Below are positions 1-20,000 of a stretch of 20,000 nucleotides of DNA, in pieces. Position 1 is the first letter of the stretch. Each line of letters begins with the position of its first letter. The notes beneath the pieces were generated by a model, which saw nothing but the letters and a program-made list of their open reading frames with translations, had not been told where the DNA came from and ran no database searches. Source of the stretch: Psammoneis japonica (lineage: Eukaryota); assembly GCA_008632985.1 (NCBI GenBank), contig QPGO01000192.1, forward strand, positions 121,718 to 141,717, given 5' to 3'. The translations under genes were made by a program, and so were the position numbers.

Positions 1-60
1 AAAGCACTTTGCAAAAAATTGACCACCCCAGCACCTCAGTGCTGTCACACGTGTTTTGCG

Positions 61-198: not shown

Positions 199-560
199 AA
201 ACCCGGCAATGTGTGGCAGATGGCGAGCCTTCCAAAGCTGCCAAAGAGTGTGCAGAGAGCACACAGCTTGTGTGCACATGTGGTGTGATGCCTGTGGAAC
301 ATTTCTCCTGCAACAGACTTCCAACAAATGGATTTTTTTCTGTCTCCAAGGGAGTCATGGTCAACATCAGCGGTGGTGCACCCCTCTGCAAAAACGAGTC
401 CAGCAAAAAAGGGAGGTGCGCAGAGACCATTTTGTTGTCTCCGAGACAACACATTGGCCAAGTGCAAACTGAAAGCAGCAGCATTGCATTTTAGCAAACC
501 AACTGCAAACTGGGGTGTGGGTGTTGTGACAGAGCTTGACAAGAAAAGGCTGCACCAACA

Positions 561-1576: not shown

Positions 1577-3583
1577 ATGGTGGTGGTGCATCGTCATGTC
1601 TCTGCACTCTTGTCGCTGCTTACTCTGCTTCATAGAGCAGTAGTCACAGCATACCGCTATGCAGTGATTCCGAAAAGAATCAACAGTCCTTTTTTCGAGG
1701 CGGTCCGCCAGGGATGCGAGCATCAAGCACGGCAATACGACAATGTTGAATGCGTGTACACTGGACCTGCCGACACTACCAATTTGACAGAACGACAAGT
1801 GGAAATATTGACAGAGCTACTACCCACAATTGATGGGTTTGCCATTGCCGTCAAGGACGCTACCGTTATTGGAGATTTGATTGATTCTGCCGTGGAAACA
1901 GGCAAGTTTGCTCTAACTTTTGACAGTGATGCAGAGGACAGCATGCGAAACGCATACGTGGGGACCGACAATTACAAGTTTGGGAGGGAGCTTGCGCATG
2001 TCCTATTGCAGCTCGCACCAGAGGGCGGGTCGTATGGTATAATAACGGGAAGCTTTACGTCTCCAAACCTTGTTGCAAGGGTCAATGGAGTCCGTGATGG
2101 TTTGAAAAGGAGCGAGTGGGTCGAAGTGGCAAGCTCACCACGCAATGGTCTCGGAAAACCTTTGGTCGCGGTTCAAGAAATGGAAGATCTTGCGCAGCTA
2201 TATCCTGACATACGGGCCATTATCCCCGTTGGGGGTTGGCCCATGTACGATGAGGAAGCTTGGCAGTCGTTTGTAGGAAAGTACCCACGTATTGTCACGG
2301 TTTGCGCAGATGCGCTTGACATTCAAATTCAATTAATGAATCGAGGAATGGTCAATGGACTTGTTGGACAGCTTCCGTTTCAATTTGGGCAGTTTGCGAT
2401 TGAAAAGCTACACCTTCTCAAGACTAGTCAAGTCCAGGGCTTACCGGCCCCTTTTCCAAATGGCAGCATCTTCCCGACGGCAGTCCTTAATGTGTTACAG
2501 ATTCCACAGAATCTTCCGCCTTTGACGGAGGATATGAATTACATTGGATCCTTGGCCATACTTGGTTATGTGCTCTTTGGTATCATCGTAGCGTCATGCT
2601 TTGTGTTTGCGGGATGGACCTATGTCAATCGCAACTCTCCCGTGGTGCTACTCTCTCAACCGCCATTTCTTTATATGATTCTCGCTGGGGTTTTGATTAT
2701 GGGGGCAGCAATCATTCCTTTATCGATTGATGATGAGAAGCATTCTACAAGAGGATGTAGCATTGCTTGTATGTGCGTTCCTTGGTTAATTACCATTGGC
2801 TTTGTTACTACATTTTCGGCCCTCTTTAGCAAGACGTGGCGTCTCAACAGAATCCATAGGAACGCTCAGAACTTTCGACGCGTCCAGGTAACTGTGGCGG
2901 ACGTCCTCGTACCGTTTGCTTTGCTATTGACGTTGAACGTCATTGTCTTGCTTTGCTGGACTCTGATTGCACCTTTGCAATACGAACGAAGAGCATCAGC
3001 GGGGACAGACAATTGGAATCGGGTGTCAAGAAGTTACTACGGTGCCTGCTTTGGACCAGACGATGTCAAGGGAGGAGCTACTCCATATGTCGTGCTGCTT
3101 GTGGTGATTAACTTTTCGGTCATTATTGTTGCAAACATCCAGGCCTACAAGGCGAGAAAGATCCAGAAGATCTACATGGATGAGTCCAAATACATTGGCT
3201 ACATTATGCTCAGCATTCTCCAGGGGTGGATGGTGGGAATTCCGATACTGGCACTATCACGCGATGATCCTCAAGCATCCTTTGTCGTGTTGTCAGTCAT
3301 CATTTTTGCCACTTCAATGGCGACGCTCCTTTTCCTTTTCGTGCCAAAAATTACTACTGACAAGGAAAGCTTAACAGATGGCCAGAGGCATTCATCAACG
3401 GTTGAAGCAATTCGAAACGCAGTGGCGGTGAGCGCCTTGGATAAAGAAAGCGAGATAGGAACGATACAAGAGGAAGATTCATCAAACATTGCTTCGAACG
3501 CTCCGATAAAGAGGTCGGAAAATGGTGGAGACGGGACTACCGCACTCGCTAACGTTGATGAAACGCACGTTGGGCTGCGATGA
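1577..3583 (+). CDS. Class C (GABA-B-like, 7tm_3) GPCR with N-terminal periplasmic sugar-binding (RbsB-like, type I PBP) domain; intronless
   Basis: ATG 1577 starts a signal peptide (MVVVHRHVSALLSLLTLLHRAVVTA). The PBP-like region has NSPFFEAVRQGC, TFDSDA...YVGTDNYKFG, ARVNGVRDGL and GLVGQLPFQFG. Seven hydrophobic helices follow, with class C motifs SQPPFL, FSKTWR, DESKYI and LFVPKI. Confidence 0.9.
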   Translation: MVVVHRHVSALLSLLTLLHRAVVTAYRYAVIPKRINSPFFEAVRQGCEHQARQYDNVECVYTGPADTTNLTERQVEILTELLPTIDGFAIAVKDATVIGDLIDSAVETGKFALTFDSDAEDSMRNAYVGTDNYKFGRELAHVLLQLAPEGGSYGIITGSFTSPNLVARVNGVRDGLKRSEWVEVASSPRNGLGKPLVAVQEMEDLAQLYPDIRAIIPVGGWPMYDEEAWQSFVGKYPRIVTVCADALDIQIQLMNRGMVNGLVGQLPFQFGQFAIEKLHLLKTSQVQGLPAPFPNGSIFPTAVLNVLQIPQNLPPLTEDMNYIGSLAILGYVLFGIIVASCFVFAGWTYVNRNSPVVLLSQPPFLYMILAGVLIMGAAIIPLSIDDEKHSTRGCSIACMCVPWLITIGFVTTFSALFSKTWRLNRIHRNAQNFRRVQVTVADVLVPFALLLTLNVIVLLCWTLIAPLQYERRASAGTDNWNRVSRSYYGACFGPDDVKGGATPYVVLLVVINFSVIIVANIQAYKARKIQKIYMDESKYIGYIMLSILQGWMVGIPILALSRDDPQASFVVLSVIIFATSMATLLFLFVPKITTDKESLTDGQRHSSTVEAIRNAVAVSALDKESEIGTIQEEDSSNIASNAPIKRSENGGDGTTALANVDETHVGLR

Positions 3584-3879
3584 TCAGGTAGAGTAACAAC
3601 CGAGAGTGGCACGCTCAATCTGGCAACAAAGCAACTTCGAAACAATCGTTGATCCGCGCCGCAATCAAAGGGGCACATGGTAGCTTTTGAATCATACGTT
3701 CTTCCGTGAGGAGAATCATAATTCCGATGGGAGGGTCGTGCAATTTCTGCACGGAATGATGTGCCAGCAGATTCGCCCGGAGGGGTGGGGGGAGCGGAAA
3801 AATCGGTTCTTAGTTAATGACAGCGTTGGCTGTGCTCTCTAGTAGAGTAGCTAGCAAGTAGTGGTCCTCTACTAGTAGC

Positions 3880-3963
3880 TAGTAGAGAGTAATGTCTATT
3901 CGAATCTGCCTGAGTACGTAGTAGTAGAGAGTAATGTCTATTCGAATCTGCCTGAGTACGTAG
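3880..3963. repeat. Perfect 42-bp tandem duplication within a TAG-rich tract between convergent genes
   Basis: tagtagagagtaatgtctattcgaatctgcctgagtacgtag occurs at 3880-3921 and 3922-3963. Confidence 0.95.
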
Positions 3964-4081
3964 TATGTAAGCATCAAGATTTCACCCGGTTTCTCGTATC
4001 TTTCATGTACCTATAACGCTTTGCGTTTACCAAGACGCTCGATCTCCTCATGTTGAACAGTTTATATAACTCTTCTTGGGT

Positions 4082-7000
4082 TTATGCGGCTTTTGAGGCA
4101 AAGAATTCCATTTTTCTCTTTGACGCTTTCGCGGACTTCACTTTTGGCATTTCAGGACGAAAAGCCTGCTCTGAAACGGTGCCTTCTCCCTCTGTTACAC
4201 CCTCTCCTACCCAAAATGTGACCATATCCCCTTTGCCCTTGACCGGAACCTTACCACGCTTGGTCAGCGGCACGGACGGATCCTGATCTCGGAGGAGGAG
4301 CGCAGAACGCTCAGAAGCCTGTATCCTCCCAGCCACACTGGTAGACTCCATTCTGCTGCTGACATTGACACAGTCCCCAAATAATCCATAACGAGGGTTC
4401 AACGAGCCTACAACGTTGCTGACGACTGGTCCAGAATGAAATCCTACGCGAATTTGGACGAAACCTTTTTCAGGGTCCTCTTCGTCAATCAAAGTATCAC
4501 CGGCTGCCTTGACAGCATCCAAGGCAAAGTGAGCGATTCTCTGCACATGGTCGTCCGATTGATCCTGAACAAGGTTGCAGACACCCATGAAAGCGTCGCC
4601 AATCGTTTCCACTTTTCTCGTGGGGTCGTGGAGGGAATTTTGGTTGTAAGCAAATTATAGAACACATTTTGCAAAGCACAGTACAGACCAAACAGAAGGA
4701 TTACCTTTGAACACTTCATGTTTTCGAGCAAGATTGTCAAATGCTAGATAGAGCCTATCCAGCATGTTGGACACCTTCAAAGGTTCCGACTCACTTGCAA
4801 TCGCGGTGAAGCCTACTATGTCAGAAAAGAAAATGGTGACGCAATCGTGCGACTCCGGCTCAACCTTCCGTCCGGCAAGTAGAGAATTGGCAATGTGTCT
4901 TGGGAATACATCATAAAGGACTTCTGCACTTCGTCCGCTCTTTTGCTTGGCAAAACGACTTCGACGGTCTACTCCTGGCTCAACTGTTTTACAGTCTAAC
5001 AACTTCAGACGCCGGTCGAGTTCTTTGGCAGTTGGACGAAGCTGTGGGTCTCCCTCCAAGCAGTCTTTCATTAACGTTGCAATCGTCGGAGGACATCCGG
5101 GGGGGATCTTGGGACGCTTGTTTATTCTTGGGTCGCATATTTGTCTAATCACGTCATCATAGCTCTCTCCCTGGAAAGGATCCTTCCTCGAGTACAATTC
5201 GTAAAGAATCATGCCGAAAGAATACAAATCAGATTCCGCGGTCGAGCCACTCTCGCGACGTAGAAGCTCTGGTGCCATCCAAAAAGGTGTCCCTTGTCCT
5301 TTTCTTTCCTTTCGATCACCCTTTCGCGCAAGTCCAAAGTCCGCCACCTTGGCTCTGAATCTCGAATCAATGAGCACGTTTTGACTCTTCAAATCGCCAT
5401 GAATAATTTGCGGCGTTGCTGAATGAAGAAACAAAATCCCTTGACAAATATCTCGCAAAACATTCAAGCAAAAGTCGCCTTCAATTTGAAACGTGTCGTT
5501 GTGAATCACATCGCTAATTTGACAAGAAAAATGAGCAAAGGTCAGTACCAGCATTTTGGGCTGACAGGTTCTTGTCATCGTCAACTTACTAAAGGGAGCC
5601 ATGATCCGCGTATTCCATTATAATCAAAGTGTCTTCATCCCATCTCGATGCCAACACAGCGCCCATGATCGTGCTGATACATGGGTGACGCAACTTGGTA
5701 AGAAATCTTATCTCTTGAAGGAAGCTTTGCTTCAGCTGAGCATTGCTGTTTCGGCTTCTGAGGCTGAAGAGAGAAGACCCTCGCGTTTTCTTTCCTTCTT
5801 CAGCCGCTTCGAGATCAACGGAAGCGAACGCGCTTTTTGAGCATCCGTCAGAGGTCACATGACTTTTGACTCCTTGCTCATTGCGCTTGTAAGCGCATTT
5901 TACTGCGACCTTTGTTCCACGATATTCAGCCAATAGGATGCTGCCGAAAGCACCTTCTCCGATTTTTTGAACCGGTGTTCCGAAATGGAGCTCCTCGCGA
6001 TTGACAATCCAGAGGGCATCAGCCTGCTTTCTCTTGCGCTGAACGTAAACGTATATTGCAACAACAGTAAGCAAGCAGACAGGTAACGCGATGATCAGAA
6101 CTAGAATCCAAATTTGAATGCAGGAACTTCCAATGGACACTGTGTCACCCGCACATTGACAGTTGCCGTCAACATCCGGTTCTCGCGGGTCGGAGCCATA
6201 GTCTGAAGAGCAATCTCTTGCTTGAACCTCAACTCGGAGCGGCGACTCGGAGATCTGTTCCCCGTTAACAAACACCTCGAGAATAACAGTACCAACTTTC
6301 GTTGCAGAGACCGAGAATTGATATATGTTCTGCGATTCGGAGCTTCGAACGACCGGTATTGTCCTGGAAATTTCACCTTCGTGTACCACAGCGGTAATGA
6401 GAACTCCTTCGCTCGCTCGTTCTTTATTGTCTTTGGCATAGAATGTCAGCGCTTTTGTTTGCTGAAAACCACCACAAAGGGACATCTTAGAGCATCCTGT
6501 CTCCATAACGTCCTCTTCTGGGAAAACATCGACATCGAATCCCTTCCGACATGGACTACACAGACACTGAAAGCCCTCTTCGCAAAAAAGTCCAACTTGC
6601 TCGCAACCTTCATCGATTTCCTTTTTCGACTTTTTGAAATACCCATTAGGACACGTTATTGCGTTATAGAGTTCCGCTGGACGGTTGCAGCGCCAGGTGT
6701 TCGTTATCGGATCCTTGTGAATGAAATCGTTGTCCTGCAGCATCGAGCGTATCTCTATGTACGAGAGTGTAGTTCTGAAATCAGCATACTTTCCATTTAT
6801 CAATGCCACTCTCGCATATTTTGCAATTTCTTTTGTCGTGTCACATCTTGCATCTACGTCAAACTCTTTCGGGAAAGAGAATGTTTCGCAGACTGACTGC
6901 CCAAGTTGCTCGATGCATTCTTCCAAGGCGAAACCCAACCTACCGTGAGCTGACAGAGAAAGCATAGCAGTTTGCACCTCAAGAGACACTTCTTCCGAAA

Positions 7001-7985
7001 TATGAGTTAGGGCGGCCAGGTTCCATTCGGGGTAGAGCTGAGTTGAGGCCTCAAAGCTTAAAGGCAGATACTGGGGAGTGAGAAGAAAACCCAACCGACT
7101 ACATACACGTGGCTTTGATGTCACTTACGGAAATGGTTCATTGAATAGCACGTTCGTCTTTGGTTCCAACACTTTGAAAAGGCTAGGATCAATTGCGAGT
7201 CCATCATTATCTTTTGTTCTTTCTATTTGATCAGTTCTTACGAATCCCGCATCGAACTCGCCGCTGAGAACTCCACGCACAATTCTTCCTTGGTTCCCTG
7301 TAAAGACGAGCTGCTTGAAATCGTTAATGAAGGATAGTCCAGCATTTTGAACTTCACGAAATTGCACCTGACCACCACCAAAAGATGAAATCGCGGCAGC
7401 AGCAACTATTTTCCCCTCTAAATCCTTCAAACTGGTAATCTCGGTATTGTTTGCTCTTGCCGTGATGACGCCAGCGAACTTTGGGAGATTGTACACTTGG
7501 TTTCCGACCACTCTCTTTGAAATATGGGAGACCAAAGACTCAGCTCCGTATTCGGATTCAATACACGAGAAGGGACTAGGACTGGTGTAAATGAAATCAA
7601 TCGTCTTTGCTTCCGTTTCGTCAAACATTGTCTGAAAATCAATGGGTTTCATTTCAAATCGGATAGGAGGGTCAAACTTCTTTCCTGCGGCTTCCGTCAA
7701 ATACTCAGTAAATGTAACACCATGCTGGGCAAATGCAGTTCCCGGTCCTCGAAACTCCAGAACACCAACGGTATATACTTGCTTGTGCCTTTTCGCATCG
7801 AACGGCCGAGGTTTGGTACATGCACCGCAAGAGACGTCCGTTTCAGTTGCCATCGGGAATGTCGTGCTGTTGTATGATTCTTCTGGTTCGTTTTCTTGCA
7901 AACGACGTTCCATTTTTGTGTTGCTAGAAACCCCTGTCACCAAAAGGTGACTAATGCAATAACTGAAAACGAAAAGTGCTCTCAT
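4082..7985 (-). CDS. Receptor-type nucleotide (probably guanylate) cyclase: signal peptide, PhnD-like phosphonate-binding PBP, Cys-rich and Ig/filamin-like region, TM, protein kinase, class III cyclase; ~1220 aa, 4 exons
   Basis: Exons 7985-7129, 7056-5590, 5513-4705 and 4611-4082 total 3663 nt and stay in frame. The joins read EPFP|FEASTQLYPEW, HGSLY|DVIHN and EVFKV|ETIGDAFM. Kinase motifs: GEGAFG, VAVK, HGDLKSQN, DFG, GTPFWMAPE. Cyclase motifs: VTIFFSDIVGFT, VETIGD, RVGFHSGPV, RYGLFGDCVNVSSRMES. Confidence 0.9.
4612..4704 (-). other. Intron 3 of receptor cyclase (93 nt)
   Basis: Donor GTAAT at 4704, acceptor AAAG at 4612. The join gives the canonical cyclase motif FKVETIGD. Confidence 0.85.
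5514..5589 (-). other. Intron 2 of receptor cyclase (76 nt)
   Basis: Donor GTAAGT at 5589, branch-like CTGAC at ~5541-5545, acceptor TAG at 5514. The join TA|C gives the kinase segment GSLYD. Confidence 0.9.
7057..7128 (-). other. Intron 1 of receptor cyclase (72 nt)
   Basis: Donor GTAAGT at 7128 and acceptor TAAG at 7057 restore the frame (CC|C TTT GAG). The nearby CAG at 7071 gives an immediate stop. Confidence 0.75.
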
Positions 7986-8651
7986 GACGATAGTTTGATT
8001 GTTTCACGATTGCCGGTTGGGACTGATGACTCTCGTCCGATATCCTGCCAGTTCACCCACTTCTACTCGTTAACTTTTTGTATGAGAAGCCTGTTACGGC
8101 AAAAAAGCAAGAGGATGTGGTGATTGATGATCGAAGCAGTCAATGCATCTGCAGCAACCCGTGATCATCCGCGGTTTGGGATCGATTCTTTTTAGGTTTG
8201 ACAAAAGGTCATTCAATCGTGCTTTCTGCTTGCGGCATAAATCCCCCCTATTGCCTTATGACCTCAACCGAAACGAAATGACTTCTTTGATGACTCCGGC
8301 TCCGCTGGATTTGTTGCTTTGTATTTTCCAGAGCTCGGAGCTCGAGATGGAAGATGGACGAGCTTCGACGAACCTCAATCGAGCGAGCGAGATCTCAACA
8401 CTCTGAACTCCACTTGTACTGTACCGGTAGTCAGTTACCATAGGACCCTCTAGACTATTCTACATGGCCTCCTGGACGCTAGTACTGGGAGATTCTTCAC
8501 AAATAAGCCACGGGGAATGACTCCACTTACTTCCGTAGCCCGGGTGCAGGACGCGCCAACTGCAGTTGACGTTGTGCAGATTATTTTTTACCGGATCCAT
8601 CTTCACAAGGTAGTTTGTTGAATTTGGTACTCCGTTTTGTAGCCTTTGTGG

Positions 8652-10265
8652 TCAAACATGCCCTTCTGCATCGCCTTCAGTCCAACAAACAGCCTCGAGA
8701 AGAGAGCCCACAATATACAATGATCCAGTGACACAAACTTCAACACCTTCGTGTTGCTTGTCGCCCATTGCACGACCTTTGATTCTCTCCAAAGCATCAG
8801 GCACGGTCAAGCTGGAAAAGATGGTTGAGCCACGGTTTGCAGTCCTTTCCAGATGCTTCCAAATGTTGGCCAAGGTATCCTGCCATGATGTCTCTTGTTG
8901 GTGATGAAGAATGTCGTCATCAGGATCGACCGGTAACCCGCATTCTTTCAACAAGTCACGTGCACTTGACTTGTTTACCATACTTGGGCGTTCCGTGTTG
9001 GAACGACAAAAGTAAACCGTATCAAACAGTGTAGATTTTTGCAGGATCTGCAAGAGCGGCACTGGGTTGCGTTCATGACTGCAATTGAAAATGAGCGCCT
9101 TCTCTGCGTCTGCGTTGTCGTTGCAGATGCTTTGAAACCAGTCCATGCACGCTAGCATCGATATGACAGTATGCGCCCCGTCGCAACGAAAATGAATAAA
9201 AGCATTGTTGGTCTCGACTCCAACCGTCTGACACCGTCCTGGCCACGACGCTTGAGCAAGTGCGTCCTGTACACCCATATCCGCAACAGTCATGTTTTGT
9301 ACCAATGCTTCACACAAATGTACCGCCAATTCAGCATTGATGCGTTGGTGTCTTCCCTCCAAACCAAGCTTGTATTCGTTCGGAATCGATTCTCCCTCAC
9401 CAACAACATGAAGCTCTTGTCCCATTCCTTCAGTATACGCGCATTGGCGAAGCACGGCAAGGACGGATGGAGGGTTGGTATTGACAGCAAACAAGCGCTT
9501 TGACTGGTTACTATCTGACGATGACAATGGCTGTAGCACTACTGGTTTTTCTTGATCGGTTTGTTCTTCTGATGGCCGAGGCGTCACATTTTCGTTGCTT
9601 GCTTTGTGCACAGCAAAGATTCCCCCCTTTTCCCATGCAATTTGTTCCAGTGTGTTTCCCAACACCCGCGTATGATCCAAATCCAACAAGGTCACACCAC
9701 AAATCACATTTTTATTTAAAGAATCAATCACATTGGTGGCATCGTACCGTCCGCCCATGCCCACTTCGAGAATCACAGCGTCCAGAGTCGGTTCTTGGTA
9801 GTTGGCAAAAACATACAGAGCCATGAGGGTCAGCATGCGAAAATATCCCGGCAATTGCGGCAATTCATCATCTTTATTGGATGGGTAGGTCTGTAGCTTT
9901 TCTCGTACATCAAAATACGCTTTTCCAAACACCTCTTTGGAAATCGGTTTGCCATTGACGCGAATGCGTTCTCGAATATCCACAAGGTGTGGAGACGAAA
10001 AGAGACCCGTATTCAACTTGTATCTTCTTCTGAGGATAGAATCACAAAAGGCCGCTGTGGAGCCTTTGCCTTTGGTTCCCGTAATATGAATAATGTTGTT
10101 TGGCAATTTTTTCGTTAGATGATTCAAGCGTTTCAGGTAGCATTGCATGTCGGACACGGTGTGAATGCGACGAGCAGCCGATTTTTCCAGAGCTTCTTTT
10201 GTGCGTGCTTGGTGGAGAGAAGAATAGAGTGCTGAAACCGCATCGTCAAATTGTGAGTCAGACAT
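8652..10265 (-). CDS. FPGS: Folylpolyglutamate synthase (eukaryotic FPGS/FolC family, Mur ligase fold)
   Basis: Motifs IHITGTKGKGST (P-loop), GLFSSPHLVDIRERIR, LEVGMGGRYDATN, LDHTRVLGNTLEQIAWEKGGIF, WPGRCQ, DGAHT and VTGSLYIVG. First in-frame ATG is at 10265 (MSDSQF). Confidence 0.95.
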   Translation of the reverse strand: MSDSQFDDAVSALYSSLHQARTKEALEKSAARRIHTVSDMQCYLKRLNHLTKKLPNNIIHITGTKGKGSTAAFCDSILRRRYKLNTGLFSSPHLVDIRERIRVNGKPISKEVFGKAYFDVREKLQTYPSNKDDELPQLPGYFRMLTLMALYVFANYQEPTLDAVILEVGMGGRYDATNVIDSLNKNVICGVTLLDLDHTRVLGNTLEQIAWEKGGIFAVHKASNENVTPRPSEEQTDQEKPVVLQPLSSSDSNQSKRLFAVNTNPPSVLAVLRQCAYTEGMGQELHVVGEGESIPNEYKLGLEGRHQRINAELAVHLCEALVQNMTVADMGVQDALAQASWPGRCQTVGVETNNAFIHFRCDGAHTVISMLACMDWFQSICNDNADAEKALIFNCSHERNPVPLLQILQKSTLFDTVYFCRSNTERPSMVNKSSARDLLKECGLPVDPDDDILHHQQETSWQDTLANIWKHLERTANRGSTIFSSLTVPDALERIKGRAMGDKQHEGVEVCVTGSLYIVGSLLEAVCWTEGDAEGHV

Positions 10266-10797
10266 GTCGTTGTGAAAAAGCAAATGATGAACGCCGCAAC
10301 GCAACAGAGCGCCATTGGCAATCGGTGATGGCCGGTCTGTCAATGTCGAAAAAAAGACAGGAAAAAGGAAAAAGGAAAAAGACTGATTTATGATTTCTGT
10401 CCGAAAGAGTTTAGAAAATGGAATTTTAGTTTTTCACATGATTTTACCCCATTTCTGTCATTCGGTGTCAGACACACAGGCCGACGACACATATTTTCAT
10501 ATACATATTCAGTCTTTAATATCATGAATGAAACAATCCGAACACGCCGACCATCCGTTCAGCACCCGGACCCCCCAGCAAACATCGTAGAATTTGTACT
10601 GGATTTCACGTTCAAGAAAACTCTATGATCACTTTGGGTCAGAAACACTCATGATATTGATATGTTCAACGGCATGGCATTTTGGAGTTAGTTTACCGCC
10701 GTCGGACCACTTTTGCATCACAACAACACTGTAGAGTCCTCCATTTATCCATACAAGTCCATATTCTATCCTGAGTTAGAGTTAGTACTCTCTTATA

Positions 10798-13215
10798 ATG
10801 AGTTCCATGCACAGATCTTCCAAACGCCGCCGCCGCAAGCCTCTCTTTCAGCACGCTACGCAGGTTTCTACGGTAGAAGAGCGGCTGTTGCAACAAGCCA
10901 TTCAAAACTCCAAAATCGACACAAAACGACCCGTCGATGGCAAGCTAGACATTCCCGAGGGTCCCACCTTTTATCCCACCCATGAAGAGTTTCAGGGCAA
11001 CCCGATTGATTATATCGAGTCGATTCGCCCGATTGCTCAGCAATACGGGATTTGCAAGATTGTCCCCCCGGCGGGGTGGAATCCGCCCTTTTGTGTCGAC
11101 ATGGAGTCACAGAAAAAGTTTGCCACCAAAGAACAGCTGCTGCACCGGCTACAGGAGGGAATTAGTTTTGGAGACGGAGTCGAATACACGGCGGCCGAGT
11201 ATCAGCGCGTAGCAAGTCTACGTGCAAAAGAGTGGAAGGCCAAGCATTATCCCGATCATGATTTGCTAAAGAGCGCTCGTGATTACACGGCTGCCAATAA
11301 CACGAGTGATGCTGATTCAGAAAAGAAGAACGATGCGAAAATCATGACGCCGGAGAATTTGGAACGTGAGTATTGGGATATCGTAGAGACCCATACGCGT
11401 GAAGTTTCAGTGGAGTATGGGAACGATGTGGAGAGCAACATTTATGGTTCGGGCTTTCCTCTATCCGAACGCGGCCGTGCCTTGTATGGAACCAATTCCA
11501 AATCAAATTTACCCGAACCCGAATTTGGTACCCCCGAGTATTACCGTGAAACGTGGTGGAACCTAAACAACATTCCCCAAGCACCCGATTCTGTGTTGCG
11601 GCATGTCAAGGTGGGAATCAACGGTGTCAATGTGCCGTGGATGTATTATGGAACACTGTTCTCGACCTTTTGTTGGCATAACGAAGACAATTATCTGTAC
11701 AGCATCAATTATCACCACAAAGGTGCTCCCAAACAGTGGTATGGAGTGCCGGGGACCAAGAAGGATTCTGACGGAGTGGAAAAAGTCTTCAAGAGCTACC
11801 TGTCCATGAAGCTACGGGACATTCCGGACTTGCTCCATCACATCACAACCATGTTTAGTCCGCGCTTGTTACAGAATGCCAAAGTTCCCGTGTACAGGAT
11901 GTTGCAGTATCCCGGCGAGTTTGTCGTGACATTTCCGCGTAGCTTCCACGCTGGCTTTAGTCTCGGTCCCAATGCCGGAGAAGCGGTCAATTTTGCCACG
12001 CATGATTGGATTGCTCATGGCGCCGACGCCAATGAGCGTTATCGGTCCTATGCCCGACCGCGGTCTTTTCTCACGACCGTCTCACCTTTACCATGGCGAA
12101 CCACTTGAAGGAACAAAAGCACTACGCACGTGTCGATTGCTCTTGGCTGAGCTGGAACGCATTGTCAAGGAAGAACTCTCGTTGCGACACAAACTTATTC
12201 AGGATGGTGTCCGGGATGTTTCCGATATGATTACGTTACCTCGGAATCGTTTGGACCAACTGGATGAGGCGAGTGCCGATTATGATGACAAGCGCTTGTG
12301 TTTTGCCTGCAAGCACATTTGCTTCTTCTCGGCAGTTGCGTGTGAGTGCAGCCAAACCAAGGTGAGCTGTCTTCGACACTCACATTACATGTGCCGGTGT
12401 GTGACGGAACGCAAGTATCTGATGATTTGGAGTGACGAGGAGGAAATGAACGGGACTCTCGAGAAAGTACGGGACTTTTGTAACGAGTTGAAACAAAAAG
12501 AGGGTGTCGGCGGGACGGAGGAAACGGCGGCGGTTGAACTTCCAGCAAAAGCACCCGGTGTAGAGCGAGATGCGGAAGCTCACAAGAACGAAGAGCTTAC
12601 TCTTGAACCGGTCAATGCGGATCCGAATTACTTTCAACCCGCGACGAGGGACTCTCCTATCGCTGTGCCTGTTGCAAAGAGAGCCAAAACTTCAATGGCT
12701 GGGGCATCCATGTCGTCCTATACCTCTGGACTCGTGGAAGATACGTTGAGGGCCTACACTGCCCAAACCGCAAAGAATGCCCGGACTCAATGTGCGGATC
12801 TCGCGGCTGGAGGTCCGTCGTCTGGATCTGGGAAAGGTCGTGGCGAAGCTGCTACTGTAGGAAATGGCGCCATCGAAAGCCCATCCGGAGGGGGAGTAAG
12901 TGCGGCTGCTACCGCTGGAAGTCCATCTACGGACGGGGAAGATTTGTTTGGTGATGACGCCACTGAAACGACAGCGGCTACAAACAATGGCCAAGTAATC
13001 GTGGTATAGTAGAAGGACTGCCCGCTGCGAACTTGAGTTCGCCCATTGCTAGTGCCGTCGAAGCACCATCACTTGTAAAGAATAGCGCCGATGAGACGCT
13101 CAGTGCATGCTCCACTCAAGCGACAACGAACAAAGGACCAAGTGTTGAAGTCGCCGGTCTTGCTGGGGTTGCGGGATCTCTGACGCCTAAACTGGAGGTC
13201 GAGGGCAGCACGTAG
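10798..13215 (+). CDS. JmjN-JmjC-C5HC2 zinc finger histone lysine demethylase (KDM5/JARID1-like) with three apparent single-base deletions; 5' end uncertain
   Basis: JmjN: PTFYPTHEEF...YGICKIVPPAGW. JmjC: WNLNN, PWMYYG, FCWHNED, PKQWY, FPRSFHAGF, EAVNFA. C5HC2: CFACKHICFFSAVACEC...CLRH...C.C. Three -1 shifts (~12060, ~12110-12128, ~12990) give a continuous protein ending at 13215. Confidence 0.85.
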
Positions 13216-13645
13216 GATTTATCATTATTTATATCAAGACATTACTATTCTCAAAATGCTGTGATTTGCTTGCGTTTGTGGACAACCGATTGTTTCGAAA
13301 CTGCAATCTTTTCTCTGTGGTGATATCCCACGAAGACTATTATTTTTGGATAGATCCTTGGATGTGGATAACGTCTTCTTCTCCTTGGCTTGCAACAGTC
13401 TTCAGTTTGCATCTGAGGTTGCGAGGCAGCGCAATTCCATTGCGCATTATTTTCAAACAAGAAATTGTCCGTAGCTGGAGGAGCAGGTACCGGTAGAGTT
13501 TGGAATGTAGGAACCGAAGAGCTGAAAACATGAAATGTTCGATAGACACGGACAAGTGACTCTGGGGAGGAAAGAATGAGACCCGTCGTACACGCAGCGA
13601 AAGGGTGCAAATCTGGGGTGTAAATTGGGTTCCAATCAAGGCAAT

Positions 13646-14647
13646 CTAGCTACTCCAAACCTCTTCCAGGGTCTCTCTAAAGATCTGATTAAGCTGTTCA
13701 ACCGGCACCTTCTGCATCCTCTTTTCAAACCTTTCCGCTTCAAGGCGAACGAATTGGTCTTCGAGGAATTGGCTTATCACGGGAATGACTGGGCCCTCAT
13801 CCATTTCGGCACCGGACCGTTTCTCCTCAATAAGATCTTTGATGGCAGTTTTCAATTCACCGTCGGATAGAGTTCCTTCAAGCAAGGCTTGAAACTCTGT
13901 CGGAACCACACCCAGCTGCCTTTCCAACCACATCATAGCAAGAAGCGGCCGCAACACATAAAAGTACTTCTTGGTCCGGATCCGATCGCCGCGGAGGTAA
14001 CTCCGAAAGTTGCTCTTTGCCATCGAGTAGTAATGATACATGCAGGAGACTGGCGAATATACCTTCGGGGCCAAGTCTCGCATCTTTTGAGCGGTAGTGT
14101 ATTGTTCCAAATAAACAATGGGTGATCCAAGCCACTCAAGCAGCGGCGGGTTTGATTTCTCAAAAAGCTTTAGCGCCTTGCGCAAATCCCACCCGTTAAT
14201 GTCGAGATCATTGTAAATTGGCAATTCAATCACATCTCGAAGTTGTTCAAGTTCAACAGAGAGATACCAATCGGTAGGATGCACGTAGAGAAAGCGAACA
14301 TCGTAATCACTGTTGGCGGAGGGGAAGCCCCAGGCCCGCGACCCAGACTCGCATGCGTACAGTACCTTGACGGCGTGATCCTTTTCGATTTGATGGATTT
14401 CATCCATGATTTGCTTCCGGACCCCATCATAAATTTCAAATGTTCCATCAGGTTCCGAGAATTTCGGCGTGCCACATAGCCGAGGTTTTGGGGTAGACAA
14501 TTTGAGTCTGTGCACCTCATTGTGCCACGGCAACATGATTTTCGAACTGCCGTGCGTTGGCTGTTTCTTACGCTGTGGCACGGACAACGAGGTCACCAAG
14601 GGTGATGAACCTAAAGAAACAAGGAATGCAAGCGACAACAACCTCAT
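13646..14647 (-). CDS. Bacterial-type Pol-beta superfamily nucleotidyltransferase (RlaP/YcgL-like, PF10127-type) with N-terminal signal peptide and transit-like extension; intronless, 333 aa
   Basis: Core motifs: VLYACESGSRAWGFPSANSDYDVRFLY (GS plus DxD), RDVIELP, LDINGWDLRKALKL..KSNPPLLEWLGSPIVY, KKYFYVLRPLLA. ATG 14647 starts MRLLSLAFLVSLGSSPLVTS-LSV. Confidence 0.88.
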   Translation of the reverse strand: MRLLSLAFLVSLGSSPLVTSLSVPQRKKQPTHGSSKIMLPWHNEVHRLKLSTPKPRLCGTPKFSEPDGTFEIYDGVRKQIMDEIHQIEKDHAVKVLYACESGSRAWGFPSANSDYDVRFLYVHPTDWYLSVELEQLRDVIELPIYNDLDINGWDLRKALKLFEKSNPPLLEWLGSPIVYLEQYTTAQKMRDLAPKVYSPVSCMYHYYSMAKSNFRSYLRGDRIRTKKYFYVLRPLLAMMWLERQLGVVPTEFQALLEGTLSDGELKTAIKDLIEEKRSGAEMDEGPVIPVISQFLEDQFVRLEAERFEKRMQKVPVEQLNQIFRETLEEVWSS

Positions 14648-15962
14648 TCTGTTACTTGGAATCAAATCAAGGTATTTGAAGTGAAACAAACCACACTTCT
14701 TGCGAACGCCTGCCTGCCTGGTGGCAATTCACGACGGTTTGTCTGTCACCGTCTTTTACGTATACGAGAAAACCTGAAACATAACAAGCAAAAGGAGTTT
14801 CCAACGACTCGTCAAGCACACGAAGCTTATCTCCCTTGTACGACGTCCATCTGCGACCAGCAATCATTCGTCGCAAAAACGCCACTCGATTGACTTAACC
14901 TCATTTGCCGGAAACTAGATCCACAAAATTTGACCACCTGGGTTTACAGTCAAACAAAAACCCAGTCAATCAACAGCCACACCTAATTATCTATCTTCAA
15001 ACATGAAATCCCGTGGGTGATGGAAAACAACGAGAAAGCGCCAATTCCGGGAGGAATCCGCCTCGTACATGAATCGTTATTGGTACTTTCAAAAAAGCAT
15101 CGCGCTCTTCCATACCATCACCCCAATAACACTCATCAGGAAAATATGGTAGAGGATGTGCAGAGCCTGTCTGGCAGTGACCAAATCAGGACAATCGAAC
15201 GTAATCAAGAGTGAAACAACCGAAAGAAAATTTCGATCTTTGTCGGGTCATTCTCTTGTTGCCTGTCAAGCATCGCATTCTTCCACACTAGCGCACATGG
15301 ACCATTCAGTAGGAGCGCAGTAGAGCCTGGAGTGTTCATCCTTCCATTAGCACCCGCAGAACTTTGATTTCCTTTCACATTCTCCAAATGCTGGCATGAT
15401 TGACGCGACCCCAAGAATCTCCTGCGCAGCGCGAGGACACGCATCTGGCTGCATGCGAGTTGTTCTTCTTTTGTTATGTGTTTCAAAAAACATCAAAGAG
15501 ATGACAGAAATGAAAGATTTGCAAGCAGATTTTCAACATGGACAAATGAAAAGGGTGAGAGAGATGCGTCAATTGTCAGTTGGCGCAGCTTGGGCGGGTT
15601 GTCGGATTGGGGTCGTTTTTGGGCGAAAAAAATTCTAGAGATTCTATGGTTTTCATCGGCGTCCCCACCAGAAGACCATTGTCGCCAATGGGGAGGCACA
15701 TGACCGTTTGCTATGGCATTGCTCCGCTTTCTATTGAAGATCGAGATCATTGTTTCGGAGCAAAGATTATTGATATCAATGACGAAGAATCGCTTGGGGA
15801 AAATCATCGCATGGATGTGGTGCCAACAATGGCGCATGCTGGGGATGGAACTTTTCTGGGCGGACGCAAATATGAGGTGCATCATTATTGTATTAAAATT
15901 TTCAAATTGACCTTACAATGGTTAGTGACAAGTGTGACACCGTCAAGATAAGTCACCACGGT

Positions 15963-17449
15963 TTATGGTGTTTCTTTGCATTGCCGTGATTGCTGCCTCG
16001 AAGGTTTTCTCGGGTTTCTTCTTTGCTTGCGATGATTCTGTTTGTTCTGATTTCCTGAAAGGCCTACGCTATACTTTTTCCAATGAGGATACTTGTGATT
16101 TTTGACAGGCTTTCCCGCATGAATACCCTTTTGATTTCCCCAACGATTAGTTGCGTGCCATGGGCGCCAGTTTGGGTTGATCCTTGTAGGTGGACGGGTC
16201 GTCTCATATTGTGCCGTGGGTGCCCTTGTTGATGGCGCCGGGGTAGTTGGCTCGGGAGTTGGTGGAGCGGTTGGTGATGAGGTGGGACTCATTGTTGGGA
16301 CCCTTGTTGCTGGCGCCGGGGTAGTTAGCTTGGGAGTCGGCTGAGCGGTTGGGGACAATGTTGGACGTAAAGTTGGCGCTTGGGTCGTTGGCTCGAGGCT
16401 TGGCGGAGGCGTTGGTGTCAGAGTGGGACGAGCTGTAGGTGTTTCAGACGGAATCGAGAGATCCGAACACCAAGTGCGTTTGCTCGCGTCCAGCACTTTC
16501 GTCATGTCACAAATCGTTTCATACAACCAGCCTAGCACATGACTTAGGCGCACGTAGACTTCTGGGCATGTAATTGTATCAGCACAACCGAAGGCACCCC
16601 ACGAAACAACTCCGACTTGGATGTCTGCTGCTGGATCTCGTCCTCGAATGACTAGAGGCCCACCAGAGTCGCCATAGCATGGTCCGTCGACTTCAGAGAA
16701 CGCGCACATCATCTCATCTGTGAAGGTAAGCTCCATCTCGTCGAAAATCTCCGAGCAATCATCGTTTGTCAATGATTTGACAGAGGTCTCTAGCAAGAAA
16801 TCTGAATCAAGATAGTCTTCTGTCTCGCCAAACCCCATTACAGTCAGATCTGTTCCTGCAGCGGGAATGCTCTTTACATGGTTTATGGCGACGGGGGAAG
16901 CTGCAGATATACCGCGCAGTCGAATCAACATGACGTCATTCTCATCGGTAAAAAAGTTGTACTGCGGATGAGGGATCACTTCCGCAACTCTAAACCTCTC
17001 AAAGCTATCTTCAGAGTCAAACACACTGTATTTGCCAATGCTCACGAACTTCAAGGATTCGTGGTTGCAATGAGCAGCGGACAAGACGACATTGGGAGCG
17101 ACGAGCGATCCTCCGCAAAATTCATTTCCTTTTCTGTCTTCTAAGGATGCAAAATATGGATACCTGTTTCTCTTTGCATTACTTCCGCCAATGATAAACG
17201 TTGATGGTGGCGGATAACTTCTGTCTCGTTTCTCCGGCTTCTGAGATAGAGCGTGGGTTGGAGGAAAGCGATGTGTACAGTGAGTGAAATTCTTGGAAGC
17301 AAAAACACTTGCAATCGTTTTTAGCTCACCTTGTTTAAATGACCAAGGCCTCGTGGCCCGTCTAGACGGAAAACATTCACTTGATCTCCATTGGCGTTCT
17401 GACATCGAATCATAAAATGAAGGACGATGATGACACTAAAGACCTTCAT
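15963..17449 (-). CDS. Secreted S1A (trypsin/chymotrypsin fold) serine protease with Pro/Thr-rich stalk and basic C-tail; 2 exons, ~465 aa
   Basis: Exon 1 (17449-17330) encodes the signal peptide MKVFSVIIVLHFMIRCQNANG. Exon 2 (17240-15963) has IIGG, CGGSLV, LSAAHC (His), ENDVMLIRL (Asp), CYGDSGGP (Ser) and GVVSWG. Confidence 0.92.
16200..16445 (-). repeat. Coding Pro/Thr (PTxxPT) repeats including an imperfect 78-bp (26-aa) tandem duplication
   Basis: cccttgttgatggcgccggggtagttggctcgggagttgg at 16223 vs cccttgttgctggcgccggggtagttagcttgggagtcgg at 16301. Confidence 0.85.
17241..17329 (-). other. Intron of serine protease (89 nt, phase 0)
   Basis: AAG|GTGAGC donor, CTCAC branch-like site, pyrimidine-rich tract and TCTCAG acceptor. 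It joins the signal-peptide exon in frame with the protease ORF. Confidence 0.88.
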
Positions 17450-17876
17450 TATTTTGTGCACAAGTACAATGTAACACAAGATCAAGAACGTATTTTAGCA
17501 GTGAATTTGTTAGCACAGATTACGGAACGCTTTCTCTGCTGCAAATAAGAGTTTGTGAGATCAAAAAAGTGTTTCTTCTACAACGCAAGGCGGGGCACGA
17601 CTCATTCATCAAGTTCGAGCCATGTTCGAGGATGGGGCACAACTTTCGGCATCAAGTCCACATGCTGCTGTACTGGTAACTGTGTAGATGAGACTAATGA
17701 TAGTTTCAGAATGACTTATTTGTGACCATTGCTCAGAACTTTTTTAAGTGAGATGTGTCTGTGAAGACATTATGTTGAACAAACTTTTGTCTCGAACCGC
17801 GAAAAATAAAAAATATAAAAAGAACAAAACTTGTGGATCCCTGCTGCAAGCCGGTGTGCATGCACCGGCAGACCTA

Positions 17877-20000
17877 ACAGCACGAGACGGACCTTTCGCG
17901 CTTCGAGTCGTCACACGGCACGGGGGCGCATGGTGGCGGCCATTGCCACCCGCTTTCATCGGCATCCACCACCGACAGTCGAGTGCGCTTCCTGTTGCAC
18001 GACTCCATGTTTTTGTTTTGAAGGAGACCTGTTGAGTCTGTGAGAAATGATGCTTTTTGCTGCATTGTCTGGAGTCCCCAGCAGCAAAGCTTCACACACC
18101 AGTGACGCAAAGTTGCCAAGTGCAGCCCTCCTTTCCTTTTTTCAACAGGCCAGCCTTCTTGCAGCCTGGGCTTTGGGCAAACATGAGATGGAGAGGTCAG
18201 CTTGGTGCTCAACGCTTGTCTCCTCTGTCTGCTTTTTCAGCGCTGCACGCATCCCTTTCATTTTCTGTGTGCTGCATCGAAGCAGCTTGCCAGCACACAG
18301 AATTTTTCCAAAAAGAGAAACACACCATGCTGCAATGCAGAGGGCTGTGTGCAGCTCAGCACTGCAAGCTCAACAACAGGGGCTCCTTCAGGCATTTTTG
18401 TTTGTTTGAGTGAGAGCAAACACAGGGGCTCAGCAGAAAGAGGAAAACCGAGCCTTTTCCACCCGTGTCTGAAAGGGCATGAAGAGCAGGTGCAACACAG
18501 GAGGGGGCTCTGGTGGGCAAAAGAAGTCAGCAGCAAAGTTGTTCAGCCAAGACCCCAGTCGGTGCCACCAAAGCCATTGCATCAGCACAGAGGGAGTGGC
18601 AGGTCAGGGGCAGGAGTGCCAACTTTCAACATGGAAAATGGGGCCGACAAAGAGTGTGTGCTGCAGCCATGTGTGTGCAATCAACACAGAAAGTTTTGTG
18701 CACACTGCCCTTTTGCAACAGGTTTCACTGCTGTCCTTTTGGATGTTTTTTCTGGCTTGAACACAGACACAGCATGGGCCTTTTGGGCAGAAGGGGGGCA
18801 AGCAGAGCTGTGACCTTGCCAAGTGTGCACTTGTCATCAACCATGGCAAAACAACATCATCACCCATGACCTTGATTGGGGTGCCCAACATTTGACAAAT
18901 GTGCGGCAGTTTTTTCACAGCCTGGGCTTTGTTTTCACAGCCTGGGCTTTGTTGTTGGGGCAGATGAGGGGTGCGCAAAAGTCTTTGCCAGCCCCAAGGT
19001 GCACGGGGGATGACTGCACAACAAGACACAACTGTCATCTCTGCAAGCCACTTTGGCACCTGGCTGAGCTTGAGCTTGAGACTGCCAGGGTCATCACAAC
19101 AGCACAAGAAGAGGGGTCCGCACACCACCACCATCTTCTTCCATTTGGAGAACAAGGCTTGTTGCTCCTGAAGAGGAGACAATGGTGGGGTGATGTGGTG
19201 CAACAGTTGGCACCAGAGCTTCTGCATTTCTTGAAGACAAGTGTGCCAAGCTGTCGCTGGCGAGGGATGGCTCTGGGTGCTGAATCCCAGCGCTGCACCA
19301 GCAATGTGTGACAAGGCAATGGGCTCCGCTGCCCCCCATCTTGCTGTGGCCCAGAAAGTGTGCAAGAGGCAATGCTGGTGGCAGACAGAGCTTGTGACAT
19401 CCAACAGGCTCCTGCCATGGATGGTGCACAAGGCCACCAGGCCAACATCTTCTGGCAAATGATGGCCAACAACAACACCCTCATGACGAGGGGTGCAGAA
19501 GAACGTGGTGTTTGTTGGCAGTGCAGCTGCTGGAAATGATGGCAACCACCCGGCACATGCGCAGTCATTGATGCTCCTCCAATCTGACTCAGTCAGTGGT
19601 GATCAGAGTGCAGAGCATCTTGTGCACTGCCTTCAGGGTGATGGCATGGGCACCACGCATTGTGCACCACATGGTCAGACATCAGTGTGCACACACAAAT
19701 GTTGCACTGGATGCCTGGTGTACTCACAGAAAAAAGTGCCAAACTGCCACACTTTTCCCCAGAGGTGAGAGCAAGAAAAGCTGTGCGTGCTGGTTTTTTT
19801 GAAATGAACAGCCAGCAAGATAATTTGAGAACATGCAACATTGAGCCACATCACTCAAATTGACACCCAACAGACAAGCATCAAGAAATTGTTCCCCCAA
19901 ACTGCTTCTCATTGGTGGCTGCTCTTTTGAGGAAGACTCCTTTGATTTTGCTGAGGGGCGGGGGGCACAGACAAACAGAAAAACAGCACACAACAGCATC
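17877..20000. other. TpA-erased, CpG-depleted, TpG/CpA-rich degenerate block (right flank; probable decayed repeat or gene remnant)
   Basis: Manual scan finds only 2 TA (~19721, ~19821) in ~2.1 kb and roughly 25 CG in 18010-20000. Many overlapping Cys/His/Gln-rich ORFs with almost no Tyr. Confidence 0.9.
18912..18953. repeat. 20-bp tandem duplication
   Basis: ttttcacagcctgggctttg occurs twice in tandem. Confidence 0.9.

What the first reader, a model, noticed from the sequence alone, without database searches (positions are those of the whole stretch)
17877..20000. Near-total erasure of TpA: candidate 'reverse-RIP' hypermutation system acting on silenced DNA
Seen: about 2 TA in 2.1 kb by manual count, where base composition predicts on the order of 100, and the same pattern in 1-1085. 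TG and CA are abundant, while AA and TT runs survive. The genic core has ordinary TA use. Established: 5mC deamination explains CG->TG/CA but cannot remove TA, and fungal RIP (CpA->TpA) raises TA. Inference: a second, region-targeted process converts TA to TG/CA (A->G 3' of T, on both strands). One candidate is error-prone Pol-eta-like patch synthesis during repair of T:G mismatches, as in the WA->WG phase of somatic hypermutation. Another is a TadA-like DNA adenine deaminase with TA preference. Either would destroy Tyr codons, TAA/TAG stops, TATA motifs and TA transposon target sites, and could serve as genome defence. I know of no described mechanism for this, but I cannot search the literature.
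Basis: partly seen in the sequence, partly recalled or inferred. Interest (0 to 1): 0.9.

Follow-up and report, generated by a model that had tools for sequence, protein, structure and literature searches.

The report
TpA-erasing hypermutation domains in a diatom
Two stretches flanking a block of ordinary diatom-like genes have lost almost every TA dinucleotide through TA-to-TG/CA mutation, a signature reported so far in only one unrelated alga and whose enzyme is still unknown.

Summary
TA occurs 2 times against 119 expected in 17877-20000, and 2 against 68 in 1-1085. CG is also depleted and TG/CA is about 1.7-1.9-fold enriched. The edges are step-like.

The direction of mutation could be read directly. 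Window 690-944 is a duplicated fragment of an aminotransferase gene. A second copy in the same sample's contigs differs at 10 places. Seven are TA in that copy and TG or CA here, two are CG to TG, and one is a transversion. A distant homologue agrees with the other copy at all 3 testable residues.

TA sites mutated 7 of 8, against 0 of 118 other A/T bases and 2 of 14 CG sites. In 751-1086 TA is erased while CpG is intact, so the process does not depend on CpG decay.

The phenomenon is no longer undescribed, though. A 2026 preprint reports TpA-only hypermutation of integrated viral DNA in the chlorarachniophyte Bigelowiella natans. This window extends it to a diatom-like stramenopile, at saturation. 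The enzyme, the silencing and a defence role remain untested, and a Pol-eta WA mechanism fits poorly.

The parts
1..1086 (.). Left TA-free domain, which runs off the window's left end. It holds 2 TA (at 492 and 853) against 68 expected.
1..750 (.). Part of the left domain that is both TA-free and CpG-depleted: TA 1 against 25 expected at the core's o/e, CG o/e 0.24, TG 83, CA 85. No recognisable coding origin.
   Evidence: no Pfam hit in the flank ORFs
690..944 (+). Mutated duplicate of an internal fragment of a class I/II aminotransferase gene, matching residues 105-189 of the 490-aa homologue P0121 (PF00155). The other copy in the same sample differs at 10 places. Seven of them are TA there and TG/CA here, including Tyr-to-Cys twice and Val-to-Ala three times.
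751..1086 (.). Margin where TA is erased (1 observed against 10.9 expected, P = 2e-4) but CpG is normal (o/e 0.90). This shows that TA loss is separable from CpG decay.
1087..17876 (.). Unmutated core of ordinary, intron-poor host genes: PBP-7TM receptor, phosphonate-binding/kinase/guanylate-cyclase receptor, FPGS, JmjN-JmjC-C5HC2, RlaP nucleotidyltransferase and trypsin. TA o/e 0.53, CG o/e 0.98. The outermost genes start about 450 nt inside each border and face outward.
   Evidence: spliced contigs of X2
17852..18000 (.). CpG-dense, GC-rich border segment (18 CG in about 150 nt). It has no TA after 17875, but that is not significant on its own.
18001..20000 (.). Right TA-free and CpG-depleted domain, which runs off the window's right end. 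TA 2 (at 19721 and 19821) against 61.5 expected at the core's o/e; CG o/e 0.18; TG 211, CA 246. No recognisable coding origin.

Best explanation
The two flanks are chromosomal domains of a diatom-like stramenopile that underwent, in place, a context-specific DNA hypermutation. The A of TpA became G on either strand (TA to TG or CA), and this ran almost to saturation.

A second, slower process is superimposed: CpG-to-TpG/CpA decay of the kind produced by 5-methylcytosine deamination in methylated diatom repeats.

The TA process is bounded by domain, not by repeat. It stops abruptly about 450 nt upstream of the first outward-facing host gene on each side. It covers a captured fragment of a host aminotransferase gene together with its unrelated surroundings. 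It leaves the donor copy of that gene untouched.

What is shown: the signature, its polarity, its TA specificity, its symmetry between strands, and its independence from local CpG loss.

What is inferred: the agent is a polynucleotide adenine deaminase with a -1 T preference (TadA/ADAT2-like, A to inosine, read as G) that is recruited to silent or foreign chromatin. This would be the same kind of process as the TpA hypermutation just reported in Bigelowiella natans. I put about 0.75-0.8 on the process-level reading and about 0.4 on the deaminase.
For: Signature.
- TA o/e is 0.02-0.03 with TG/CA at 1.6-1.9. The TG+CA excess (213) roughly equals the TA plus CG deficit (223).
- A simulation applying only TA-to-TG/CA and CG-to-TG/CA changes to the core reproduces the flank dinucleotide profiles (r = 0.93 and 0.96, against 0.72 and 0.83 for the unmutated core).

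Polarity and specificity.
- A second copy of 688-945 in X1 and X2 contigs differs at 10 places: 7 are TA there and TG (3) or CA (4) here, 2 are CG to TG, and 1 is a C/G transversion.
- The outgroup P0121 has V, Y, V where the window has A, C, A. This agrees with the other copy at 3 of 3 testable positions.
- 7 of 8 TA sites changed, against 0 of 118 non-TA A/T bases (P = 9e-11) and 2 of 14 CG sites (P = 0.0015).

Separability from CpG decay. In 751-1086, TA is 1 against 10.9 expected while CG o/e is 0.90.

Both strands. TG:CA is 211:246, 83:85 and 3:4.

Real DNA. An X1 contig reproduces 17030-20000 with no differences.

Precedent. In B. natans mutation-accumulation lines, 230 of 231 mutations in two integrated viral regions were A-to-G or T-to-C, all at TpA. 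[quoted passage not shown]

Enzyme plausibility. TadA recognises U(-1)A(0)C(+1)G(+2) (passages of PMC10586758).

CpG component. Diatom methylation is mainly at CpG and lies on repeats (passages of PMC5124317).
Against: - Polarised evidence rests on one 258-nt duplicated segment. For the other roughly 2.9 kb of flank, only composition is available.
- The 10 differences are those that the table lists. 284 rows for the whole window were not shown. I argue that none belong to this contig, because all its rows carry the same support, but I could not verify it.
- X1 and X2 come from a single sample and study and may be the assembly's own data, so platform independence is not proven.
- No viral or transposon origin of the flanks could be shown: 0 Pfam families reached their curated cut-off in 32 ORFs (3 sub-threshold matches, E 0.02-0.24), and no homologue of the 332-aa ORF was found. 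In B. natans the targets were integrated viruses.
- No genome is held, so no deaminase, DNMT5 or genome-wide distribution could be examined.
- Nothing shows that the process is still active, or that the domains are methylated or silent.
- AT is somewhat depleted (o/e 0.70-0.78) and GC and TT are raised in the flanks. The two-process simulation does not reproduce this.
- The other diatom-like contigs examined showed no such islands, but only about 10 of the 80 loci were diatom-like.
Confidence: 0.77

Rival explanations
1. Repair-coupled polymerase error. Error-prone Pol-eta-like patch synthesis during repair of T:G mismatches from 5mC deamination writes G for A at WA motifs.
For: TA loss and CpG decay coincide over most of both flanks: CG o/e 0.18-0.24 where TA is about 0. 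From recall, Pol eta's hot spot in somatic hypermutation is WA with TA above AA.
Against: AA is not depleted: o/e 1.10 and 1.24 against 1.19 in the core. In 751-1086 TA is erased while CpG is intact (o/e 0.90). In the polarised segment, 7 of 8 TA sites changed against 2 of 14 CG sites, so TA loss does not track deamination events. There is no strand bias.
Confidence: 0.1
2. RNA-level editing followed by reverse transcription. An ADAR-like enzyme hyper-edits double-stranded transcripts of a retroelement, and the edited copy is inserted.
For: According to the B. natans preprint's Discussion, ADARs favour a U 5' of the edited A. The flanks could be degraded retroelements, since their origin is unknown.
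Against: The TA-free state continues across both ends of the duplicated gene fragment (688-945) into unrelated sequence, and it ends at a step about 450 nt from host genes rather than at element termini. TG and CA products are interleaved and balanced. No RT or integrase trace was found in 32 ORFs. From recall, ADARs are known only in animals.
Confidence: 0.05
3. Intrinsic or selected composition. The flanks are foreign or special DNA that never had TA, or that is under selection against TA, for example to avoid TA-targeting transposases or nucleases.
For: Outside 688-945 only composition is known, and no progenitor is available.
Against: In 688-945 the TA-bearing state is ancestral by outgroup at 3 of 3 residues. 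The changes destroy conserved residues, for example Tyr to Cys in the ERPTYF motif. That looks like decay, not selection. The TG+CA excess matches the TA plus CG deficit.
Confidence: 0.05
4. Sequencing or base-calling artefact at modified DNA.
For: The library type of X1 is not on record, and all the runs come from one sample.
Against: A separately built contig set gives the identical 3-kb sequence. Persistent inosine or a modified base would give strand-coupled all-TG or all-CA reads, whereas here the two products are interleaved. The TA-bearing donor copy is read correctly in the same runs.
Confidence: 0.03

Closest known systems
TpA-targeted hypermutation of integrated NCLDV and virophage DNA in Bigelowiella natans (Mettrop et al., bioRxiv 10.64898/2026.01.13.699255; abstract, Results and Discussion read)
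   Same: The change is exclusively TA to TG/CA on both strands. It is regionally confined. The long-term footprint is TpA depletion with CpA+TpG enrichment. The flanks here pass that paper's cluster cut-offs (Rho TpA at or below 0.43, Rho CpA+TpG at or above 1.52). Their TA frequency of 0.0009-0.0018 matches its low-TpA CDS class (0.0018).
   Different: The host is a diatom-like stramenopile, not a rhizarian. Here the erasure is saturated, whereas the active B. natans NCLDV region still has Rho TpA of 0.45. Here it co-occurs with strong CpG decay, and the word 'CpG' does not occur in the preprint's main text. The one identifiable target here is a host-gene fragment, and no viral or transposon origin could be shown. 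Ongoing activity was not measured here.
Fungal repeat-induced point mutation (RIP); the RIP-related papers appeared only in search listings and the details are recalled
   Same: Both are regional, context-specific transition hypermutation that destroys coding capacity, and both have been proposed as genome defence.
   Different: RIP is C to T, mainly at CpA, and it raises TpA. Here TpA is erased. RIP mutates both copies of a duplication. Here the donor copy keeps its TAs.
CpG decay of methylated repeats in diatoms (passages of PMC5124317)
   Same: CG o/e is 0.18-0.24 with a TG/CA gain, and 2 polarised CG-to-TG changes were seen.
   Different: It cannot remove TA. The TA-free zone extends 120-340 nt beyond the CpG-depleted zone.
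TadA/ADAT2 tRNA adenosine deaminases and the DNA adenine deaminases evolved from them (passages of PMC10586758; BjADAT2 and TbADAT2 as cited in the preprint)
   Same: The chemistry is A to I, read as G. The natural substrate has U at -1, which corresponds to TpA in DNA.
   Different: Natural TadA also requires C(+1) and G(+2) and a loop structure. Here every TA context is lost (TAA, TAT, TAC, TAG). No such gene could be looked for, because no genome is held.

Membership tests
TpA-targeted regional hypermutation (B. natans type) | Mutations are almost exclusively A-to-G/T-to-C and fall on TpA only | tested here: met
   7 of 8 TA sites changed, against 0 of 118 non-TA A/T bases (P = 9e-11). The other 3 of the 10 differences are 2 CG-to-TG changes and 1 transversion.
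TpA-targeted regional hypermutation (B. natans type) | Both products occur (TpG and CpA), meaning both strands are hit | tested here: met
   3 TG and 4 CA in the polarised segment. TG:CA is 211:246 and 83:85 in the flanks.
TpA-targeted regional hypermutation (B. natans type) | [quoted passage not shown] | tested here: inconclusive
   The thresholds are met in every 250-nt bin of 1-750 and 18001-20000. Both domains run off the window after 1.1 and 2.1 kb, so the 3-kb length criterion cannot be judged.
TpA-targeted regional hypermutation (B. natans type) | The target is foreign DNA (integrated virus or transposon) | tested here: inconclusive
   No Pfam family reached its curated cut-off in 32 flank ORFs; 3 sub-threshold matches (E 0.02-0.24) were treated as noise. 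The 332-aa ORF has no homologue among 1.84 billion representatives. The only identifiable piece is a host aminotransferase fragment.
TpA-targeted regional hypermutation (B. natans type) | A measurable, about 1000-fold higher ongoing mutation rate in the region | not testable with these tools
   This needs mutation-accumulation lines or population data.
Fungal RIP | CpA-to-TpA transitions that raise TpA | tested here: not met
   TA o/e is 0.02-0.03 and CA is 1.6-1.9.
Fungal RIP | Both copies of a duplicated segment are mutated | tested here: not met
   The other copy keeps 8 TA and matches the outgroup at 3 of 3 residues.
5mC-deamination CpG decay | CG loss with a TG/CA gain | tested here: met
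   CG o/e is 0.18-0.24, with 2 polarised CG-to-TG changes. This explains only the CG part. Methylation itself was not tested.
Pol-eta WA-to-WG spectrum (somatic-hypermutation phase 2) | A-to-G at both AA and TA (WA), with strand bias (motif recalled, not from a call) | tested here: not met
   AA o/e is 1.10-1.24 against 1.19 in the core, and no strand bias is seen.
TadA/ADAT2-like polynucleotide adenine deaminase | An HxE...PCxxC deaminase gene present in the genome and active on DNA TpA | not testable with these tools
   No genome is held for this window.

The most novel reading that the evidence does not exclude
TpA-specific DNA adenine editing is an old, SAR-wide genome-defence or heterochromatin-linked mutator, present in both stramenopiles and rhizarians. 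It is recruited to chromatin domains rather than to repeats or viral sequence as such. It works orders of magnitude faster than 5mC decay. It runs to complete TA erasure, which removes Tyr codons, TAA/TAG stops, TATA elements and TA integration sites, and it stops precisely at the promoters of active genes. If so, diatom genomes should contain many TA-free islands that mark former invaders and captured gene fragments. The responsible enzyme would be a natural, TpA-specific DNA adenine deaminase acting in double-stranded chromatin.
Probability: 0.4. Interest if true: 0.85.

Novelty: new member of a known kind. Interest (0 to 1): 0.72.

Why it matters
Context-specific A-to-G hypermutation of nuclear DNA had no natural example until a single 2026 preprint on one rhizarian alga, and its enzyme is unknown.

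A second, independent case in a diatom-like stramenopile would show three things:
- The process is not a peculiarity of one strain.
- It can run to saturation.
- It also hits non-viral DNA.

This window also provides a clean internal clock. TA loss is nearly complete in DNA whose CpGs are still intact, which separates the process from methylation decay.

Diatoms are genetically tractable, so the agent could be sought by knock-out. A natural DNA adenine deaminase with TpA specificity would interest work on genome defence, mutation-rate evolution and base editing.

For annotation, such domains carry long spurious ORFs, because TAA and TAG stops are absent. They also hide the origin of the DNA from homology searches.

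Tried and rejected
- Origin of the flanks: 12 + 21 ORF queries against Pfam (32 distinct ORFs of at least 70 aa, one queried under two coordinate ranges) gave nothing above noise. The best hits were Ribosomal_S14 (E = 0.023) and BigA_N (E = 0.093), both far below their cut-offs. phmmer of the 332-aa ORF against 1.84 billion representatives gave 0 hits.
- Internal structure: no repeats are shared between the two flanks, only a 20-nt tandem repeat at 18912-18953, and there are no tRNA genes at the borders. The two CpG-dense border segments are not similar to each other; the alignment score is within the shuffle range.
- Generality: 80 metagenome loci around FPGS relatives (856 kb, only about 10 diatom-like) contain no island with the combined signature. 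This serves as a control for rarity. It is not evidence about other diatoms.
- Donor gene's protein from the same organism: only a 58%-identical homologue was found.
- Expression: no RNA holder was listed by the run search. X2 behaves like spliced RNA contigs and has no cover on 1-667 or from about 17343 onward.
- Earlier notes of this scan: 4 look-ups gave nothing on this genome or sequence, only unrelated phage cases.
- Literature: five full-text searches found no report of TpA hypermutation in diatoms. The only report of the phenomenon was the B. natans preprint. Its supplements (bioRxiv) are closed and were not seen.
- Rejected readings: persistent deoxyinosine as a read artefact, RIP, and ADAR retro-copies. 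The reasons are under the rival explanations.

Full report
**1. Observation.**

| Region | TA obs/exp (o/e) | CG o/e | CA o/e | TG o/e | AA o/e | TT o/e |
|---|---|---|---|---|---|---|
| 17877-20000 | 2/119 (0.02) | 0.27 | 1.92 | 1.68 | 1.10 | 1.49 |
| 1-1085 | 2/68 (0.03) | 0.44 | 1.63 | 1.69 | 1.24 | 1.27 |
| Core 1086-17876 | 0.53 | 0.98 | | | | |

- The four surviving TAs are at 492, 853, 19721 and 19821. The core's outermost TAs are at 1087 and 17875, so the edges are steps, not gradients.
- At the core's own TA rate, 77.9 and 39.8 TAs are expected in the flanks (P = 4e-31 and 4e-15). 2000 shuffles never fell below 92 and 46. The longest TA-free run is 1846 nt, against 181 nt in the core.
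- The TG+CA excess in the right flank (213) roughly equals the TA plus CG deficit (223).
- Applying only TA-to-TG/CA and CG-to-TG/CA changes to the core reproduces the flank dinucleotide profiles (r = 0.93 and 0.96).
- As a rarity control, 0 of 80 unrelated metagenome loci (856 kb) contain a 500-nt window with the combined signature.

**2. Setting.**

- The core carries ordinary eukaryotic genes: PBP-7TM receptor, a phosphonate-binding/kinase/guanylate-cyclase receptor, FPGS, a JmjN-JmjC-C5HC2 protein, an RlaP nucleotidyltransferase and a trypsin.
- The FPGS's best hits reach only 55% identity. Every named hit among the 120 listed is a diatom: Seminavis 51%, Fistulifera 48%, Cyclotella, Nitzschia, Cylindrotheca, Attheya. 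The host is therefore a diatom-like stramenopile without a close relative in that collection. It is not Bigelowiella.
- No genome is held for the window.
- Three coded runs from one sample and study hold the DNA.
- X1 gives DNA-like contigs. Record 7 reproduces 17030-20000 with no differences.
- X2 behaves like RNA. One contig skips three 72-93-nt segments with CT..AC ends (GT..AG on the minus strand), exactly between the ORFs of the receptor gene.

**3. Polarity of the change.**

- Translated, window 690-944 matches residues 105-189 of a 490-aa class I/II aminotransferase (P0121, PF00155, 58% identity).
- In both X1 and X2, a second contig matches only 688-945. Beyond both ends it continues with unlike sequence. 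It differs from the window at 10 listed places.
- Read in context:
  - Seven differences are TA in that copy and TG (728, 742, 868) or CA (731, 751, 793, 877) in the window.
  - Two are CG there and TG here (734, 737).
  - One is a C/G transversion (812).
- The consequences include Tyr to Cys twice and Val to Ala three times.
- The outgroup P0121 has V, Y, V where the window has A35, C60, A63. This is ERPTYFLV against ERPTCFLA. The window copy is therefore the derived one at 3 of 3 testable residues.
- TA sites changed 7 of 8 times. Non-TA A/T bases changed 0 of 118 times (Fisher P = 9e-11). CG sites changed 2 of 14 times (P = 0.0015).
- Caveats: it is one 258-nt segment. The table omitted 284 rows for the whole window. 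I assume none belong to this contig, because all its rows share one support value.

**4. Relation to CpG decay and to the borders.**

- In 751-1086, TA is 1 against 10.9 expected (P = 2e-4), while CG o/e is 0.90.
- In 1-750 and 18001-20000, both dinucleotides are depleted (CG o/e 0.24 and 0.18).
- 17877-18000 is a CpG-dense, 65% GC segment. Its lack of TA is not significant on its own (P = 0.13).
- TA erasure therefore proceeds where CpGs are intact, and it is the faster process. CpG decay fits the known CpG methylation of diatom repeats (passages of PMC5124317).
- TG and CA products are balanced (211:246, 83:85, 3:4), so both strands are hit.
- Both borders lie about 450 nt upstream of the start codons of outward-facing genes, at 1538 on the plus strand and 17405 on the minus strand.
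- The TA-free state crosses both ends of the duplicated fragment, and the donor copy is unaffected. Targeting is therefore by domain, not by repeat.

**5. Mechanism.**

- Shown: an in-place DNA-level process that is TA-specific, symmetric between strands and bounded by domain, plus CpG decay.
- Inferred: deamination of adenine at TpA (A to inosine, read as G) by a polynucleotide deaminase. TadA-type enzymes read U at -1 of the target A (passages of PMC10586758). The B. natans authors propose an ADAT2-like enzyme.
- Against the Pol-eta WA reading: AA is not depleted, TA loss does not follow CpG loss, and there is no strand bias.
- Against RNA editing followed by retro-insertion: the signature ignores the boundaries of the duplicated unit, and no RT or integrase trace was found.
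- Against selection or intrinsic composition: the ancestral state had TA, and the changes destroy conserved residues.
- Against an artefact: an identical independent contig exists, TG and CA products are interleaved, and the TA-bearing donor is read correctly in the same runs. Independence of the sequencing platform is not proven, however.

**6. What is known.**

- Five full-text searches found one report of this phenomenon: Mettrop et al., bioRxiv 10.64898/2026.01.13.699255. I read the abstract, Results and Discussion. The supplements were not seen.
- In Bigelowiella natans mutation-accumulation lines, 231 of 302 nuclear mutations fell in an integrated NCLDV and a virophage. 230 of the 231 were A-to-G or T-to-C, all at TpA, at about 6e-7 per site per generation.
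- The word 'diatom' does not occur in that text, and none of the five searches found a diatom report.
- The present flanks pass that paper's cut-offs and match the TA frequency of its low-TpA class.
- The differences here are the host lineage, saturation, coupling with CpG decay, and a host-gene fragment as the only identifiable target.

**7. Verdict.**

The novelty claim is overtaken by a very recent preprint. This makes the finding a new member of a barely known kind, and worth following up in a tractable group.

The enzyme, the silent state and the defence role remain open. So does the origin of the flanks: no Pfam hit, and no homologue of the 332-aa ORF.

Noticed in passing
window 1-1086 and 17030-20000 against the core: X1 contigs carrying the window's flank sequence have about half the word depth of the core contigs (30.6 and 37.4 against 55-60). 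Other X1 records diverge from the window at 17563 (a loose end) and at 17417-17497. This may mean the TA-free domains are haplotype-specific. The tool warns that depth is not copy number.
   Followed up: no
window 1005-1076 and 17852-18000: Each border of the core carries a short, unusually CpG-dense segment: 9 CG in 72 nt and 18 CG in about 150 nt. These sit between the mutated domain and the first gene's upstream region. The two segments are not similar in sequence. They could be unmethylated boundary or promoter islands.
   Followed up: partly
window 3880-3963: A perfect 42-nt tandem duplication lies in a TA-rich intergenic or 3' region (TA o/e 1.42 in 3751-4000). The X2 contig carries only one unit.
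   Followed up: no
window 4082-7985 (- strand): This is one large receptor gene: phosphonate-binding-like ectodomain, transmembrane segment, protein kinase and guanylate cyclase. It is interrupted by three 72-93-nt GT..AG introns that the X2 contig splices out.
   Followed up: partly
window 13646-14689 (- strand): An intronless ORF gives a full-length match to Pfam RlaP (PF10127, 'RNA repair pathway DNA polymerase beta family', E = 6e-94). I recall this family as mainly prokaryotic, so it may be an acquired gene.
   Followed up: no
window 15744-17198: The trypsin gene's Pro/Thr-rich tail holds a diverged 78-nt repeat at 16216-16434. Several other X1 and X2 contigs match this region at under 90% identity with many indels, which suggests a paralogous protease family.
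   Followed up: no
window 17877-20000 and 1-1085: With TAA and TAG gone, only TGA stops remain, so the flanks carry long spurious ORFs of up to 332 aa that contain no Tyr. A gene caller could annotate them as proteins.
   Followed up: partly
window 1-1085 and 17877-20000: AT is also somewhat low in the flanks (o/e 0.70-0.78 against 0.95 in the core), and GC and TT are raised. The two-process simulation does not reproduce this. It is unexplained.
   Followed up: no
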